From the NCBI GenBank assembly GCA_031549385.1, contig JAVBPW010000004.1, positions 1 through 64,000 on the forward strand: a stretch of 64,000 nt of DNA. The letters are read 5' to 3'. The stretch is from Alphaproteobacteria bacterium. Lineage in GTDB: Bacteria > Pseudomonadota > Alphaproteobacteria > Rs-D84 > SZUA-605. Of this stretch, positions 13,684-19,411 are shown in pieces. Within the stretch, counting starts at the first letter, position 1; the number at the start of each line of letters is the position of its first letter. A program made the translations under genes and the position numbers. Under the pieces are notes generated by a model. That model did no database searches. It worked only from the letters and a program-made list of their open reading frames with translations, and had not been told where the DNA came from.

Positions 13684-15126
13684 TTATTTTACTTCTTCAA
13701 AGTCATTTAATTGCCATTTACCATTAAATGCATTTTCTTCAGGGCCATAAACTCTGAAATAAGTAAACCATCCTTTACCAGGTATAGTTTTAATCCAAAA
13801 GTTTTCTTGTCCTTCAGGAGCTTTTGGTCCAAAATATAAATCTATATATTTACCCTTAACATCTTTTAATTCAAATAATGAACGAATAGCTGCCCTTTTT
13901 TGATCAGTAGCAATTTCACTACGGTTTTCACTATCATAAACAGTTACAGACCAAAATAATTTAGCAGGAACAGTTAAAGGGACTCTTAATTTGTAAGTTT
14001 TAGCGCCGTCTAAATAAGCTCCGTTATTGTCTTTATTTCCTAACCAGTAAACAGATCCTTGTCCAGAAGCTCTTCTAAACATAGCTGGTGATTCTACCAT
14101 GGCTTGATAAAACCATTTTTCACGAGCGTCTAAATCTTTATAGTAAGGAGTATCAAAAGTTCCATTTTCAGGACGAAGTGTAGCCCATTCCCAATTAATT
14201 CCTTTCCATACTTTTCTATCTTCTCTTCTATCAGCAAAAGATTGAACTCTCATTTGAGCATTAGCAGTTTTTGCAGCTTGCTCTAAGATTTTTTTCATTC
14301 TTGAATTTGGCTTAAAAGGTTCACCTTTTTTAATACCAAGGATAGCAAGTTCTCCATAATAGTTTCTATATTCTTTATTAGCAGGTTCATTGTTAATTAT
14401 TTTATGAAGTAGTTCCCAATATTTTATATTTGTTTCAATTTTATTTGGAGTAAAGTCAACTGATTTATCAGATATATCTATCCATTTATTAATAGTCCAG
14501 CTATTATCTAAAGCGTGTATTTTAACTGTTTTAATTAAATCAAAAGCTTTATTTAAATCTCCTTTAACAGGCAAAGCTCTTAATAGTAATACAACTTTGT
14601 TTGTAGTTGATTTTCCAACATAATAACCTTCTGGAGTTTTACCTTTATATTCTGGAGGTAAAATTAAGTGTTTTCCACCTTTACCGGCATCTGGTCCTGG
14701 AAGACCGTAATCCATAATCCAAATTTCGTTCATATCGTTAATTGCTCCCATAATAGGTCCAGCAGGCATATCAATAACAACAGGACCATTAGTTAAGTCA
14801 ACAGGAACAAAAGAATATGGTGTATCTGAATTAGGTGTAAAAACTATTTGTTTAGGCGTTCCCATAGTAACAACACCAGATTCGTTTGGTTTAACATTTA
14901 AAGTTTTGAAAGCTTCAAATCCTGATGAAAAGGCAACTGTAGGATAAAAAAATTTATATGCTTGAATTGCTCGATTTAAATCAGCATCATCATATGCTTT
15001 TTGTACAGTTTCTTTTGTCGGATATCCATTAACAAATTTATAATCATCATAAGCAGCAATAGCATTTAAACTAATCATATTGCTCACTAAGAACCCTAAC
15101 ATTAATTTTGTAGTTACTGATTTCAT
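13684..15126 (-). CDS. DUF1254/DUF1214 domain exported protein (paralog)
   Basis: FTPNSDTPY, GPDAGKGGKHL, FWSVTVYD, YFRVYGP; start moved to MKSV after AGGAGG SD. Confidence 0.88.
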   Translation of the reverse strand: MKSVTTKLMLGFLVSNMISLNAIAAYDDYKFVNGYPTKETVQKAYDDADLNRAIQAYKFFYPTVAFSSGFEAFKTLNVKPNESGVVTMGTPKQIVFTPNSDTPYSFVPVDLTNGPVVIDMPAGPIMGAINDMNEIWIMDYGLPGPDAGKGGKHLILPPEYKGKTPEGYYVGKSTTNKVVLLLRALPVKGDLNKAFDLIKTVKIHALDNSWTINKWIDISDKSVDFTPNKIETNIKYWELLHKIINNEPANKEYRNYYGELAILGIKKGEPFKPNSRMKKILEQAAKTANAQMRVQSFADRREDRKVWKGINWEWATLRPENGTFDTPYYKDLDAREKWFYQAMVESPAMFRRASGQGSVYWLGNKDNNGAYLDGAKTYKLRVPLTVPAKLFWSVTVYDSENRSEIATDQKRAAIRSLFELKDVKGKYIDLYFGPKAPEGQENFWIKTIPGKGWFTYFRVYGPEENAFNGKWQLNDFEEVK

Positions 15127-15279
15127 ATTTTCCTCCTTAATTTTATTGAAATAGCAACAAAATTGTATCACATAAAAAAAATAAAACAATAAGGTAAAAA
15201 ATCCTCTATAGAATTCAAGTTATTAAGTTTTATTTAATTTTGATTTTTTATATAAAAAATGCTCTCCTAAGAGAGCATA

Positions 15280-15466: not shown

Positions 15467-16927
15467 ATGTATGTAATAAAAGGTCAAACAGCAGATTGGG
15501 AAGTGGTAGTAGGACTCGAAGTTCACTGCCAAATAATATCTAAATCTAAGTTATTTTCATCATCTTCGACAGAATTTGGTGCAGCTCCAAATACACAAGT
15601 TTCATTCATAGATTCAGCAATGCCAGGAATGCTTCCAGTATTAAACCAAGAATGTGTGAACCAAGCAATAAGAACTGGCTTAGGTTTAAATGCAAAAATA
15701 AACAACAAATCAGTATTTGCTCGTAAAAATTATTTTTATGCTGACCTTCCACAAGGTTATCAAATTTCTCAGCTTGCTCCATTAGTAGGTGAAGGATATT
15801 TAGAAATATTAGACGACGACGGCAATCCTAAAAAAGTTCGTATTGAAAGATTACATGTAGAACAAGACGCAGGAAAATCTGTTCACGATGCATCACCAAC
15901 TCAAACATATATAGATTTAAACAGAGTAGGTACAGGTTTAATGGAAATAGTATCCTATCCAGATATTTCATCACCGTCAGAAGCTGGGCAATATGTAAAA
16001 AAGATTCGTCAAATAGTTCGTGCCCTAGGCACATGTGACGGAAATATGGAAGAAGGTTCAATGAGAGCTGACGTAAACGTATCAGTTCGTAAAGTAGGTG
16101 AACAAGGTTATAGAACACGTTGTGAAGTAAAAAATATGAATTCATTTAAATTTATTCAACAAGCAATAGAATATGAAGCAAAAAGACAGGTAGAAGCTCA
16201 TGAAGCAGGTGAAAAGATTGTTCAATCTACATTACAATTTGACAAAGCAACAGGTGAAACATCAGTAATGCGTTCAAAAGAAGATGCGCATGATTACAGA
16301 TATTTTCCAGAACCAGATCTTGCTCCATTAATTGTAACAGATGAATTAATAGAAGAATTAAGAAAAACTCTTCCAGAATTACCAGATGCAAAAAAGAAAA
16401 GATTTATGTCTGAATATCAAATCACAGATTTTGACGCAACACTTTTAACTTCAGAAGAAGAAATATCTACCTATTATGAAAAGACAGTAGGGCAAGAAAA
16501 GATTGCAAAAGGAAAAACAGTAGCAAATTGGATGACAGGTGAATTATTTGCATACTTAAATAAATCAGGTTTAGATTTTTCACAAAATCCAATTTCATCA
16601 CAAAATCTATCTCAACTCGTGGATAGAATTTTGGATAAAACAATTTCAGGAAATATTGCAAAAAAGATTTGGGAAATGTTATTAGAAATCCCAACATTAA
16701 CACCAGATGAAATAATTGAAAAAGAAGGTTTGAAACAAATTACAGATACAGGTGCAATTGAGAAAGCTGTTGACGATGTAATTGCAAACAATCCAGATAA
16801 AGTTGCAGAAATAAAAGCAGGTAAAGATAAATTAATCGGCTGGCTAACAGGCCAAGTAATGCAGATTACTGGTGGAAAAGCAAATCCAGCAATGGTTCAA
16901 GATTTATTAAAGAAAAAATTGTTATAA
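15467..16927 (+). CDS. gatB: Asp/Glu-tRNA amidotransferase subunit B
   Basis: GLEVHCQ, RKNYFYADLPQGYQISQ, DYRYFPEPDL motifs. Confidence 0.98.
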   Translation: MYVIKGQTADWEVVVGLEVHCQIISKSKLFSSSSTEFGAAPNTQVSFIDSAMPGMLPVLNQECVNQAIRTGLGLNAKINNKSVFARKNYFYADLPQGYQISQLAPLVGEGYLEILDDDGNPKKVRIERLHVEQDAGKSVHDASPTQTYIDLNRVGTGLMEIVSYPDISSPSEAGQYVKKIRQIVRALGTCDGNMEEGSMRADVNVSVRKVGEQGYRTRCEVKNMNSFKFIQQAIEYEAKRQVEAHEAGEKIVQSTLQFDKATGETSVMRSKEDAHDYRYFPEPDLAPLIVTDELIEELRKTLPELPDAKKKRFMSEYQITDFDATLLTSEEEISTYYEKTVGQEKIAKGKTVANWMTGELFAYLNKSGLDFSQNPISSQNLSQLVDRILDKTISGNIAKKIWEMLLEIPTLTPDEIIEKEGLKQITDTGAIEKAVDDVIANNPDKVAEIKAGKDKLIGWLTGQVMQITGGKANPAMVQDLLKKKLL

Positions 16928-16954
16928 AAAAAAGCCTTCGAAACGAAGGCTTTT
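16927..16954. terminator. Bidirectional terminator shared by gatB and the convergent small RNA
   Basis: AAAAGCCTTCG-aaa-CGAAGGCTTTT with A-tract on the left and T-tract on the right. Confidence 0.88.
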
Positions 16955-16957
16955 AAA

Positions 16958-17051
16958 ATAGAAGAGAAGGTGAGCTGTTACGCACTCTTTAAATGAATGG
17001 CTGCTTCCAAGCCAACATGCCTTTGTATTGTTAGAAAACAATCTCTTCTAT
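16958..17051 (-). ncRNA. Stand-alone RNA containing the 23S rRNA L11-binding (GTPase-associated centre, H43-H44) domain
   Basis: Minus strand reads ATGTTGGCTTGGAAGCAGCCATTCATTTAAAGAGTGCGTAACAGCTCAC (23S nt ~1057-1104), closed by AAGG/CCTT and an outer ATAGAAGAG/CTCTTCTAT helix; no other rRNA sequence nearby. Confidence 0.8.
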
Positions 17052-17192
17052 AGATTTATATATTTTTATTTAATTCATATTAATTTAATTCCAATTTAAT
17101 AATTTTTACCAAAAAATCAATACGTATTTTTCTATTGCAAACCTAAAAACAAGAGTTTATAATTCTTAGTATAAAAATTAAGGAGAGAAAAC

Positions 17193-17873
17193 ATGGTAGA
17201 CAATAACAGCTTTTTTGAAGATATAAATTCAAATAACTCAGGTGGTTATAAAGATTTTAATAATTTCAATCACAATAAAGATGAAAAGAAATTCCCAGTA
17301 TTATTATTGATACTTGCAGGGGTACTTGGATTATTAATAGCAATCTTAATTTCACAAATGCTATCTTCATCAAAGAATTCAAGTAATGAATCAACAGTAG
17401 AAGTTGTTGCACCAGTAACAGAAATATCAGAACCAGTTGATCAAGATGGTGGTGATGTAGTAAATGTATATTCACAAGTTAAACCTGGTGATTCTACATT
17501 GAATACTGCTCCATTACAAACAGGACCAGCACAAAAACCAATTCAAGAAAAAGAAGTTAAAGTAATTTCCCCAGCAAAAACAATTAACTTGAGTTCAGGA
17601 TCATCATCAAGTTCATCTTCTTCATCAACAAGTGGTGGTTCACAAGTTCAACTAGCGGCAGGCGCAACAGAAAAAGCAGCTGAGGCAGAATGGACAAGAT
17701 TAAAGAAAAACCATTCAGATTTATTAGGCGATAAAAGCCATACTGTAGTAAAATCAGTAGTATCAGGTAAAACAGTATATCGTTTAAGAGTAACATCATT
17801 GACTTCAACAGAAGCAACAAGCCTATGCAAATCATTAAATGCACGTGGTGTAAGCTGCTGGAAAGCAAAATAG
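17193..17873 (+). CDS. SPOR domain cell-division protein (FtsN-like)
   Basis: N-terminal TM, Ser-rich linker, VQLAA...YRLRV...[16 protein letters not shown] domain. Confidence 0.88.
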
Positions 17874-18507: not shown

Positions 18508-18915
18508 ATGAAAAAGTTTTTAATATTTATGGCTGCTATTATAGCCTTAGTAGGCTGTAAGCAGAAAGATATTTATTCCTATAATGGGGTAAAAGTAATA
18601 TCAGCAATAGACAGTTTACCGCCTATTGATGACAGTCCTATAAAAATCACAGAATATACTGTAAGCTTCACAGATTCAACGTCTGTGTGGGTATCAAGTG
18701 CATTCACGTCACCTAACAAGGTCAGATTGCACATAAATCAAAAAGTTAAGGTTTTTGAAAACCTTACCAGAGGTGAACATATATTAGGTGATGTAACAGC
18801 AACCCAAAAAGAAGCATTAAACAAGCTTTCTTGGGAAACTATTGGCCAGCAAACAGTATTCTGGCTAATAATAGCATTAGTTTTATTTCTGGGCTTTAAA
18901 AGACCCAAAGAGTAA
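18508..18915 (+). CDS. Lipoprotein with C-terminal TM anchor (SD-less orphan class)
   Basis: ALVGC lipobox followed by KQKD; hydrophobic C-terminal helix. Confidence 0.75.
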   Translation: MKKFLIFMAAIIALVGCKQKDIYSYNGVKVISAIDSLPPIDDSPIKITEYTVSFTDSTSVWVSSAFTSPNKVRLHINQKVKVFENLTRGEHILGDVTATQKEALNKLSWETIGQQTVFWLIIALVLFLGFKRPKE

Positions 18916-18940
18916 TAATCAAGACATAAACTTAAAGCAT

Positions 18941-19411
18941 ATGAAAAACTTAACATTAATTTTAGCAATCGCACTTTGCGTATCGTGCAGCAGAGATTTC
19001 GAGTTCCAAGGTGAACGAGTTGTTCGCAGCATAGACAGTTCTGCCTATGTAGCAATTGGTGACAAAGACAAATTGTCAATAATCCAGACGGATTATAAGT
19101 TCACAATGGACAACGGAAAGGAGATATGGTGTAACAAGCCATATGCGCTTCCCAGTAAGAAGAAAGTAACACCGAGCACCTTTGTAAAGATATTCAAAAA
19201 CAAAGACGGATCTTTCCAATTGGTAGATATCGATGCTGTAAACCAAAACATGACCTACAAACAACGCCGTGGCGTATTTATAGGAATTGGAATATTAATT
19301 GGTCTTCTGGCTATTTACCTGTCTGCAGTGTACGAAGCCAAGTATGCAAGAAAACTTGCTAAAGAAGAGCTTGAAAAAGCTCAAGCTAAAGAAAAAGGAA
19401 GGCCTGTATAG
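18941..19411 (+). CDS. Lipoprotein with C-terminal TM anchor, paralog of 18508 ORF
   Basis: CVSC lipobox; shared GxxVxxxIDS and VKxFxN motifs; C-terminal TM. Confidence 0.75.
   Translation: MKNLTLILAIALCVSCSRDFEFQGERVVRSIDSSAYVAIGDKDKLSIIQTDYKFTMDNGKEIWCNKPYALPSKKKVTPSTFVKIFKNKDGSFQLVDIDAVNQNMTYKQRRGVFIGIGILIGLLAIYLSAVYEAKYARKLAKEELEKAQAKEKGRPV

What the first reader, a model, noticed from the sequence alone, without database searches (positions are those of the whole stretch)
16931..17085. Free-standing ribosomal GTPase-centre (L11-binding) mimic RNA, apparently of foreign rRNA type
Seen: between gatB and the SPOR gene the minus strand carries a 49-nt match to 23S rRNA helices 43-44 (ATGTTGGCTTGGAAGCAGCCATTCATTTAAAGAGTGCGTAACAGCTCAC), with no other rRNA sequence. 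The closing helix (CCAG/CUGG in E. coli) is replaced by a fully compensated AAGG/CCUU. The domain is mounted on a new three-way junction: a 9-bp outer helix AUAGAAGAG/CUCUUCUAU plus a hairpin AUUGUU-UUCU-AACAAU. A weak TTAATA-17-TATAAA promoter-like sequence lies upstream and the bidirectional gatB terminator directly downstream. Established: this domain folds autonomously, binds uL11, is the thiostrepton site and contacts translational GTPases and RelA. From memory and needing a check: G at position 1067, the extra U in CCAUUCAU and GAGUGCG match Bacteroidota 23S, whereas alphaproteobacterial 23S usually reads CTTAGAAGCAGCCATCATTTAAAGAAAGCG. Inference: a selected decoy RNA that titrates uL11, GTPases/RelA, an rRNA-modifying enzyme or a ribotoxin, possibly those of another (host or prey) bacterium. 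I know of no described RNA family like this.
Basis: partly seen in the sequence, partly recalled or inferred. Interest (0 to 1): 0.93.

Follow-up and report, generated by a model that had tools for sequence, protein, structure and literature searches.

The report
Stand-alone foreign ribosomal RNA domain
A tiny-genome gut bacterium carries, between two ordinary genes, an exact copy of one small self-folding piece of another phylum's ribosomal RNA, set on its own stem and followed by its own stop signal; it may be a decoy RNA, but it has been seen in one genome only.

Summary
On the minus strand at 16967-17023 lies a complete 57-nt copy of 23S helices 43-44, the uL11 / GTPase-centre domain (Rfam LSU local hit, E 4.5e-12). 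It sits on a 9-bp stem with a side hairpin and is followed by an intrinsic terminator that is stronger on that strand. The genome's own 23S is intact and has its own, different H43-44, so this is not a fragmented-rRNA piece.

The 49-nt core is identical to Bacteroidota 23S. It differs from the host's own at 6 positions and was not found in 150 other genomes of the class. Likeness to 23S stops exactly at the base of the domain. There, three of four closing pairs are replaced on both sides. Such flanking complementarity occurs at 25 of 1.86 million genome positions.

No second copy was found in relatives, Bacteroidota samples, metagenome, viral, phage or plasmid collections, so conservation and covariation cannot be tested. 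Expression and read support could not be checked.

My estimates:
- Transcribed GTPase-centre mimic that binds uL11 or other ligands of that site: about 0.4.
- Functionless captured rDNA scrap: about 0.35.

RelA is excluded as a target, because no RelA/SpoT domain was found.

The parts
16967..17023 (-). Complete H43-H44 (uL11-binding / GTPase-centre) domain, 57 nt, including its 4-bp closing helix AAGG/CCUU
   Evidence: Rfam LSU local match, 43.9 bits, E 4.5e-12. Own model R1 scores it 62.5 bits, E 7.6e-15.
16970..17018 (-). 49-nt core identical to Bacteroidota-type 23S (helices 43 and 44 proper)
   Evidence: Its inner 47 nt match exactly in 80 of 80 listed 23S loci under the R/Y pattern, and all 80 also carry the AT that precedes them, which makes 49. 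68 of the 80 carry the same G and C variants as the element. It differs from the own 23S at 6 positions (sequences compared by eye).
17043..17051 (-). 5' strand of the 9-bp outer helix (AUAGAAGAG)
   Evidence: Paired in the MFE and centroid folds. The inverted repeat occurs once in the genome.
16958..16966 (-). 3' strand of the outer helix (CUCUUCUAU), continuous with the 3' strand of the closing helix
17027..17042 (-). Side hairpin AUUGUU-UUCU-AACAAU, joined to the domain by ACA (17024-17026)
16926..16954 (-). Intrinsic terminator: 11-bp stem with 5 G-C pairs, then a U run (8 U after the G+C stem). It begins 3 nt after the gatB stop codon on the other strand.
   Evidence: The scan lists it for the minus strand only.
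17055..17083 (-). Promoter-like TTAATA-17-TATAAA. It would start the RNA at about 17048-17051, the first bases of the outer helix.
   Evidence: Read and not listed by the scan. Weak, at chance level in this A+T-rich spacer.
17135..17163 (+). Promoter of the SPOR-domain gene (TTGCAA-17-TATAAT). It marks the far edge of the roughly 207-nt extra module (16928-17134).
   Evidence: 10 of 12 positions match. The same promoter sits about 12 nt after gatB in relative G001, which lacks the module.

Best explanation
This is a real chromosomal insert that forms a small independent RNA gene.

Shown:
- A 49-nt piece identical to helices 43-44 of Bacteroidota 23S rRNA sits in a roughly 207-nt module that the nearest syntenic relative lacks.
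- The likeness to rRNA ends exactly at the base of the domain.
- A new 4-bp closing helix and a 9-bp stem with a side hairpin replace helix 42.
- A strong terminator follows on the same strand.

Inferred:
- The piece came by horizontal transfer from a Bacteroidota neighbour in the gut.
- It is transcribed from about 17051 to about 16926 as an RNA of roughly 125 nt.
- It folds like the ribosomal GTPase-associated centre, which folds on its own and binds uL11 across kingdoms (established knowledge).
- It acts in trans by occupying ligands of that site. The first candidate is the cell's single uL11. Second candidates are site-directed inhibitors from neighbours: thiopeptides, or enzymes such as the helix-44 ADP-ribosylating T6SS toxin Tre23.
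- It would then be a protein- or inhibitor-titrating mimic, as 6S RNA or CsrB are for their partners.
For: - The domain is complete and all model helices are paired.
- The own 23S is intact, so the copy is surplus.
- The core matches Bacteroidota 23S at 49 of 49 positions, with no decay in a 30%-G+C genome.
- The flanks have no residual likeness to 23S: 43 and 33 of 100 shuffles score as well. Both ends of the likeness therefore fall at the paired base of the domain.
- The stem is rebuilt from unrelated sequence. The 4+9 bp complementarity occurs at 25 of 1,861,006 genome positions.
- The scaffold belongs to no repeat family of this genome.
- The terminator is listed for the element's strand only, and no gene on that strand needs it.
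- The module is absent from G001, where gatB runs straight into the conserved SPOR promoter.
- The GTPase centre is a proven target of interbacterial toxins (PMC8661411, abstract and section 29 read).
- uL11 is interchangeable between bacteria and yeast (PMC2175356, title and start of abstract in the listing).
Against: - It is a single sequence. No copy was found in 150 other genomes of the order, in 400 other genomes of the class, in 401 Bacteroidota or in 151 Bacteroidales by covariance model. None was found in the metagenome (90 of 90 hits are 23S), viral, phage or plasmid collections.
- Without a second copy there is no covariation and no sign of purifying selection beyond the lack of decay. 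A very recent insertion explains the lack of decay equally well.
- The promoter is no better than chance, and no transcript was seen.
- The conserved unpaired G before helix 43 is C here. It is G in all 170 23S loci inspected. The effect on folding is unknown.
- A foreign-type copy is not what one expects of a decoy for the cell's own partners.
- A G at position 1067 should weaken thiostrepton binding (recalled, no call).
- An RNA decoy protects poorly against an enzyme that turns over.
Confidence: 0.4

Rival explanations
1. It is a functionless scrap of foreign rDNA. A short piece of Bacteroidota 23S DNA, or cDNA of the nuclease-resistant uL11-protected rRNA fragment, was captured recently as filler at a break in a palindromic or terminator-like spacer. 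The stem is then the old palindrome, and the neat fit is luck picked out by scanning very many windows.
For: - It is a singleton, absent from every relative and collection searched.
- Perfect identity fits a very recent event.
- Foreign or orphan 23S scraps judged to be junk were noted elsewhere in this scan (e1-931072 and e1-5384035; AI notes, unchecked).
- The promoter is at chance level.
- The conserved junction G is changed.
Against: - It needs two coincidences: both break points at the paired base of an autonomous domain, and insertion at one of about 25 in 1.86 million positions with such flanking complementarity.
- No trace of a pre-existing hairpin family exists.
- About 207 nt are extra relative to G001, not just 49, and they include a terminator facing the right way.
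Confidence: 0.35
2. It is an assembly or binning artefact: Bacteroidota 23S reads from the same gut sample were joined into the alphaproteobacterial contig.
For: - The genome is a metagenome-assembled genome of 8 contigs.
- The core is a sequence that is abundant in gut samples.
- The read-level check could not be made.
Against: - Both flanks are host DNA, and the two flanking genes are neighbours in relative G001 too.
- A graph chimera would have to enter and leave the 23S path within 49 nt, which requires the host to hold most of the core anyway (inference).
- An artefact does not create a 13-bp complementary stem.
- A second assembly of run X1 holds 0.98 of the sampled words of the 1.2-kb stretch. 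X1 is probably the source sample, so this is not independent support.
Confidence: 0.07
3. The element acts in cis or as the opposite strand. One version is a terminator/insulator module between gatB and the SPOR gene. Another is a gatB 3'-UTR read through the weak plus-strand terminator, which would carry a 49-nt perfect complement of Bacteroidota 23S helices 43-44.
For: - The plus strand folds as stably as the minus strand.
- On the plus strand the terminator has only 4 U, so read-through is conceivable.
Against: - The rRNA-sense strand is the one with the strong terminator and the matching transcription layout.
- An antisense RNA to another phylum's rRNA has no target inside this cell.
- A plain terminator needs no rRNA domain.
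Confidence: 0.08

Closest known systems
The GTPase-associated centre of 23S rRNA (helices 43-44, the 58-nt uL11- and thiostrepton-binding fragment)
   Same: Sequence and secondary structure: a full-length match to the Rfam LSU model segment with all helices paired. The core is identical to a working 23S type.
   Different: It is not part of an rRNA gene. Helix 42 is replaced by an unrelated 9-bp stem plus hairpin. The closing helix is rewritten. The conserved junction G is C. It is of another phylum's type.
Ribosomal-protein operon leaders that mimic rRNA sites (the uL1-binding rplKA leader; the L10 leader, Rfam RF00557)
   Same: The principle: an RNA outside the ribosome that copies an r-protein binding site.
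   Different: Those leaders lie in cis in the 5' UTR of the regulated r-protein operon and are loose mimics. This one is an exact copy, on its own, between gatB and a SPOR gene. rplK lies on another contig. No uL11-binding regulatory RNA is mentioned in review PMC10931766 (the 2 passages holding 'uL11' were read).
Protein-titrating mimic small RNAs (6S RNA for RNA polymerase, CsrB/RsmZ for CsrA)
   Same: The proposed way of working: a stand-alone, terminator-ended RNA that imitates the natural ligand of an abundant protein.
   Different: The partner and fold are different. Those families are conserved across many genomes, and this is a singleton. The comparison is from general knowledge, not from a call.
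rRNA gene remnants / foreign rRNA scraps
   Same: An rRNA-derived stretch outside an rRNA operon, of foreign origin.
   Different: Scraps have arbitrary ends and decay (e1-931072: about 430 nt, internally deleted; an AI note). Here the ends coincide with a domain boundary, identity is 49 of 49, and pairing is restored by new sequence.
Laboratory rRNA-fragment decoys that sequester ribosome-directed drugs
   Same: The idea that an expressed rRNA fragment can soak up a ligand of the ribosome.
   Different: Those are engineered constructs. This comparison is recalled only: searches did not retrieve the papers, so no citation is given.

Membership tests
Bacterial LSU rRNA, helices 43-44 domain (Rfam RF02541, local) | Sequence and base-pairing of model positions 1093-1148 | tested here: met
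   43.9 bits, E 4.5e-12, no non-canonical pair flagged. Model R1 scores it 62.5 bits.
Bacterial LSU rRNA gene or gene piece (fragmented rRNA) | The genome's 23S lacks this segment, or adjoining rRNA sequence is present | tested here: not met
   The own 23S matches the model from 1 to 2925 and contains its own H43-44. The flanks show no 23S likeness.
rRNA pseudogene / foreign scrap | Arbitrary break points and mutational decay | tested here: not met
   The ends fall at the paired base of the domain, and the core is identical at 49 of 49 positions.
rRNA pseudogene / foreign scrap | No transcription signals of its own and no conservation | tested here: inconclusive
   A terminator is present on the right strand and the promoter is at chance level. 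No other copy was found anywhere searched.
r-protein autoregulatory leader | Lies in the 5' UTR of the operon of the protein it binds | tested here: not met
   The only rplK is at C7:355482-355691. The element is followed on its strand only by a terminator and the antisense of gatB.
Independent small-RNA gene | Own promoter, defined 3' end, detectable transcript | tested here: inconclusive
   The 3' terminator criterion is met. The promoter is not distinguishable from chance. The transcript could not be examined.
uL11-binding RNA | Binds uL11 and adopts the Mg-dependent tertiary fold | not testable with these tools
   Nearest-neighbour energy cannot judge it: the native pairing of the 57-mer scores +2.4 kcal/mol against an MFE of -11.7. 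This is expected for a fold held by tertiary contacts.
Dispersed hairpin repeat families of this genome (earlier notes e1-1533199, e1-718170) | Several similar copies in the genome | tested here: not met
   nhmmer with both scaffold halves finds only the element itself, and blastn-short finds nothing above 17 nt.

The most novel reading that the evidence does not exclude
This is the first natural trans-acting rRNA-domain decoy. A gut alphaproteobacterium with a very small genome took the autonomous GTPase-centre domain of a neighbouring phylum's 23S rRNA and mounted it on a stem of its own. It expresses the result as a small RNA that captures uL11 or a GTPase-centre-directed weapon, such as a thiopeptide or a Tre23-like toxin. 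That would be an RNA form of target mimicry in interbacterial conflict, obtained by cross-phylum transfer of a piece of rRNA.
Probability: 0.3. Interest if true: 0.9.

Novelty: new variant of a known kind. Interest (0 to 1): 0.62.

Why it matters
rRNA is held to be almost immune to horizontal transfer, and rRNA mimicry is known only as loose look-alikes inside r-protein mRNAs. An exact functional rRNA domain from another phylum, re-housed as its own small gene, would show that self-folding rRNA modules can be exchanged and re-used as free RNAs. It would also give a natural example of an RNA target decoy for the ribosome's factor-binding site, which antibiotics and T6SS toxins attack. If it is junk instead, it is still a clean, datable marker of DNA flow from Bacteroidota into a reduced gut alphaproteobacterium.

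Tried and rejected
- Fragmented-rRNA reading: rejected, because the own 23S is complete.
- RelA titration: rejected, because no RelA_SpoT domain was found (genome 97% complete).
- A second, foreign uL11 gene: none, one rplK only.
- Member of the genome's hairpin repeats: rejected.
- Small ORF: only a 39-aa TTG frame across the element, with no support.
- Other Rfam families: the best is Phe_leader at 25.4 bits, E 0.044, against a cut-off of 55. It is driven by the terminator.
- Look-alikes in the scan's own notes: none.
- blastn in 40 relatives: the 7 non-self places covering the core are 23S genes. The rest are short A+T-rich or terminator matches.
- Odd low-scoring R1 hits in Bacteroidales. 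Five of six were fetched. Four are rRNA genes, one of them eukaryotic. One 27-bit hit lies inside a 576-aa ORF. G300:C477 was not fetched.
- Paenibacillus phage hit H1: a whole 23S gene in the record.
- Sequencing runs: one DNA run, probably the source, holds 0.98 of the words. One RNA run of the same study holds 0.16 of them.
Junction reads, depth and transcript ends therefore remain unexamined.
- Literature on the junction G: searches (no mention; noise) gave nothing.
- Collections may leave out records of this genome or of one very near it (notes under). Conspecific copies are therefore not excluded.

Full report
WHAT IS THERE. Between gatB (15467-16927, +; Pfam GatB_N and GatB_Yqey) and a SPOR-domain gene (17193-17873, +), the minus strand reads in this order:
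- a promoter-like TTAATA-17-TATAAA (17083-17055);
- AUAGAAGAG (17051-17043);
- a hairpin AUUGUU-UUCU-AACAAU (17042-17027);
- ACA;
- a 57-nt block (17023-16967);
- CUCUUCUAU (16966-16958);
- UUU;
- an intrinsic terminator (16954-16926).

Rfam aligns the 57-nt block to positions 1093-1148 of the bacterial LSU model. All helices are paired, at 43.9 bits and E 4.5e-12. This is helices 43-44, the uL11-binding GTPase-associated centre. E. coli numbers used below are assigned by me from recalled landmarks and come from no tool. The fold of the 136-nt stretch contains the 9-bp outer helix, the side hairpin and the terminator (z -4.5). The opposite strand folds as well, so energy does not choose the strand. 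The rRNA sense and the terminator do.

NOT A PIECE OF THE CELL'S OWN rRNA. The genome (931 kb, 8 contigs, 30% G+C) has one 23S gene at C6:3626-6375. It matches the model end to end and contains its own helices 43-44. A blastn of 15 rRNA-operon loci from many phyla against the genome finds rRNA-like sequence only in that operon and at C1:16970-17030. The other 16 places are 55-88 nt, which is tRNA size; they were not individually checked.

FOREIGN TYPE.
- Within the 49 nt of helices 43 and 44 proper (17018-16970), the element differs from the own 23S at 6 positions, one of them an extra U (compared by eye).
In all 80 listed loci the core lies in ordinary 23S flanks.
- 68 of those 80 carry exactly the element's variants. 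64 of the 68 bear names of Bacteroidota taxa (their phylum is from my knowledge). Three bear other names but have flanks identical to Flavobacteriia or Sphingobacteriia rows. One is unnamed.
- The 12 rows with A at position 1067 are Ignavibacteriota, Saccharibacteria and other candidate phyla, and one Acidaminobacter.
- In 150 other genomes of the host's class (at least 95% complete, 146 other genera), the 44-nt core was not found with up to 1 mismatch.
- G at 1067 by itself is not foreign. The 23S genes of genus g6 in the same order have it.

SHARP EDGES AND A REBUILT STEM.
- Beyond the core, the 60 nt on either side have no more likeness to the flanks of the listed Bacteroidota 23S loci than shuffled sequence has: 43 and 33 of 100 shuffles score as well.
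- The likeness thus ends at two positions that face each other at the base of the domain.
- Outside them, three of the four closing pairs are different on both sides (AAGG/CCUU against CCAG/CUGG in the own 23S and CYAG/CURG in Bacteroidota).
- The 3' strand then runs on without a break into a 9-bp helix.
- Complementarity of this kind (4 bp abutting plus 9 bp within 50 nt) exists at 25 of 1,861,006 positions of this genome.
- The scaffold is unique in the genome, so it is not one of the hairpin repeats noted earlier there.
- One conserved feature is not kept. The unpaired G before helix 43 is G in all 80 and all 90 23S loci inspected, and it is C here.

TRANSCRIPTION SIGNALS.
- The terminator scan lists the hairpin for the minus strand only. 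After the G+C stem come 8 U on the minus strand and 4 U on the plus strand.
- No gene lies upstream on the minus strand, so a minus-facing terminator makes sense mainly if the element is transcribed.
- The proposed promoter would start the RNA at the first bases of the outer helix. However, the scan does not list it, and promoter-like sites are not enriched here (5 found, 3.4 expected).

DISTRIBUTION.
- gatB was found in 31 of 31 genomes of the order sample. I looked downstream in 16 of these loci.
- Only G001 has the SPOR gene next. G001 is the sole other genome of the family, and its gatB is 65% identical. There the spacer is about 75 nt and holds the same SPOR promoter (TTGCAA-17-TATAAT) but no element. 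G000 thus has about 207 extra bases (16928-17134).
- A covariance model of helices 43-44 built from four 23S genes found a match in 48 of 151 genomes of the order. Only G000 has a second match, which is the element. Most assemblies lack a 23S, and only 37 candidates per genome were scored.
- The 57-mer with up to 3 mismatches was found in 0 of 401 Bacteroidota and in 1 of 401 genomes of the class, namely G000 itself.
- The model on 151 Bacteroidales gave no free-standing copy.
- The metagenome scan for the core followed by a non-T base gave 90 stretches, all with 23S flanks.
- The viral scan with a general pattern gave one 23S contaminant.
- Phage and plasmid blastn gave only partial hits over the core, with no place covering 80% of the query. 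The rows shown cover only query positions 41-101 or 53-101. One hit was checked and is a whole 23S gene.
- The element is therefore a singleton. The collections may hide records of this genome or its nearest kin.

ARTEFACT?
- Both flanking genes are neighbours in G001 too.
- A graph chimera cannot enter and leave a foreign path within 49 nt unless the host already holds most of it (inference), and it would not make a 13-bp stem.
- A second assembly of run X1 holds 0.98 of the sampled words, but X1 is probably the source sample.

HOW IT MOST LIKELY WORKS. Established knowledge (named, not tested here): the helices 43-44 domain folds on its own, binds uL11, is the thiopeptide site, and contacts translational GTPases. 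uL11 works across kingdoms (PMC2175356, listing). Helix 44 is ADP-ribosylated at 1095-1098 by the T6SS toxin Tre23 of an insect pathogen (PMC8661411, abstract and section 29).

The anatomy fits a stand-alone RNA of about 125 nt that displays this domain on a stem and takes up ligands of the site. uL11 is the default partner (one gene). RelA is excluded.

Against this reading: there is a single sequence, no transcript and a changed junction base. In addition, a foreign-type, G1067 copy is not the obvious decoy for the cell's own partners or for thiostrepton.

The main rival is a recent, functionless capture of rDNA. It needs two coincidences (domain-exact ends and a rare palindromic site), but it draws on a large look-elsewhere pool, because very many windows were scanned, and on precedents for junk rRNA scraps (unchecked AI notes). 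I put the mimic RNA at 0.40, the scrap at 0.35, a cis or opposite-strand role at 0.08 and an artefact at 0.07.

KNOWN OR NEW.
- Rfam has no family for it beyond the LSU local hit.
- Five full-text searches and a review of extraribosomal r-protein functions (PMC10931766, the two uL11 passages) gave no free-standing helices 43-44 mimic. Subscription journals and supplements were not searchable.
- It works like the rRNA mimics in r-protein leaders and like protein-titrating small RNAs, but it fails the defining cis location of the former.
- I rate it a new variant of a known kind, of clear interest, held back by being a singleton without expression data.

Noticed in passing
L004 (G033:C5) about 660-665, compared with L003 (G013:C1) 1565-1660: The 23S gene of relative G033 lacks about 97 nt directly after helix 44 that its congener G013 has (a gap in the cmscan alignment at model positions about 1150-1194). 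It could be a deletion, a fragmentation or intervening-sequence site, or an assembly collapse.
   Followed up: no
window 17135-17163 (+) and L183 (G001) downstream of gatB: The promoter of the SPOR-domain gene, TTGCAA-17-TATAAT, is conserved between two genera whose gatB proteins are only 65% identical.
   Followed up: partly
G014:C35:254-1686: gatB of relative G014 is matched in two pieces, the second with one TGA and one TAA inside. It is a possible pseudogene or an assembly error in a 72%-complete genome.
   Followed up: no
L068, L093, L107; G300:C542 = L306; G280:C306: There are signs of mis-binned rRNA contigs in public MAGs. 23S contigs labelled Cyanobacteria, Microcoleus and Berkelbacteria have flanks identical to Flavobacteriia or Sphingobacteriia rows. 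One Bacteroidales genome holds a eukaryotic LSU. Another holds a helices 43-44 segment that scores 90.9 bits, the same as the 23S of the window's own genome.
   Followed up: no
window 13684-15189 (-) and 18508-19411 (+): A DUF1254/DUF1214 protein lies upstream of gatB. Two ORFs of 135 and 156 aa without Pfam matches lie between the SPOR gene and plsX.
   Followed up: no
G000:C6:3626-6375: The genome's own 23S gene is 2750 nt against a 2925-position model, that is, somewhat shortened. Which helices are reduced was not examined.
   Followed up: no
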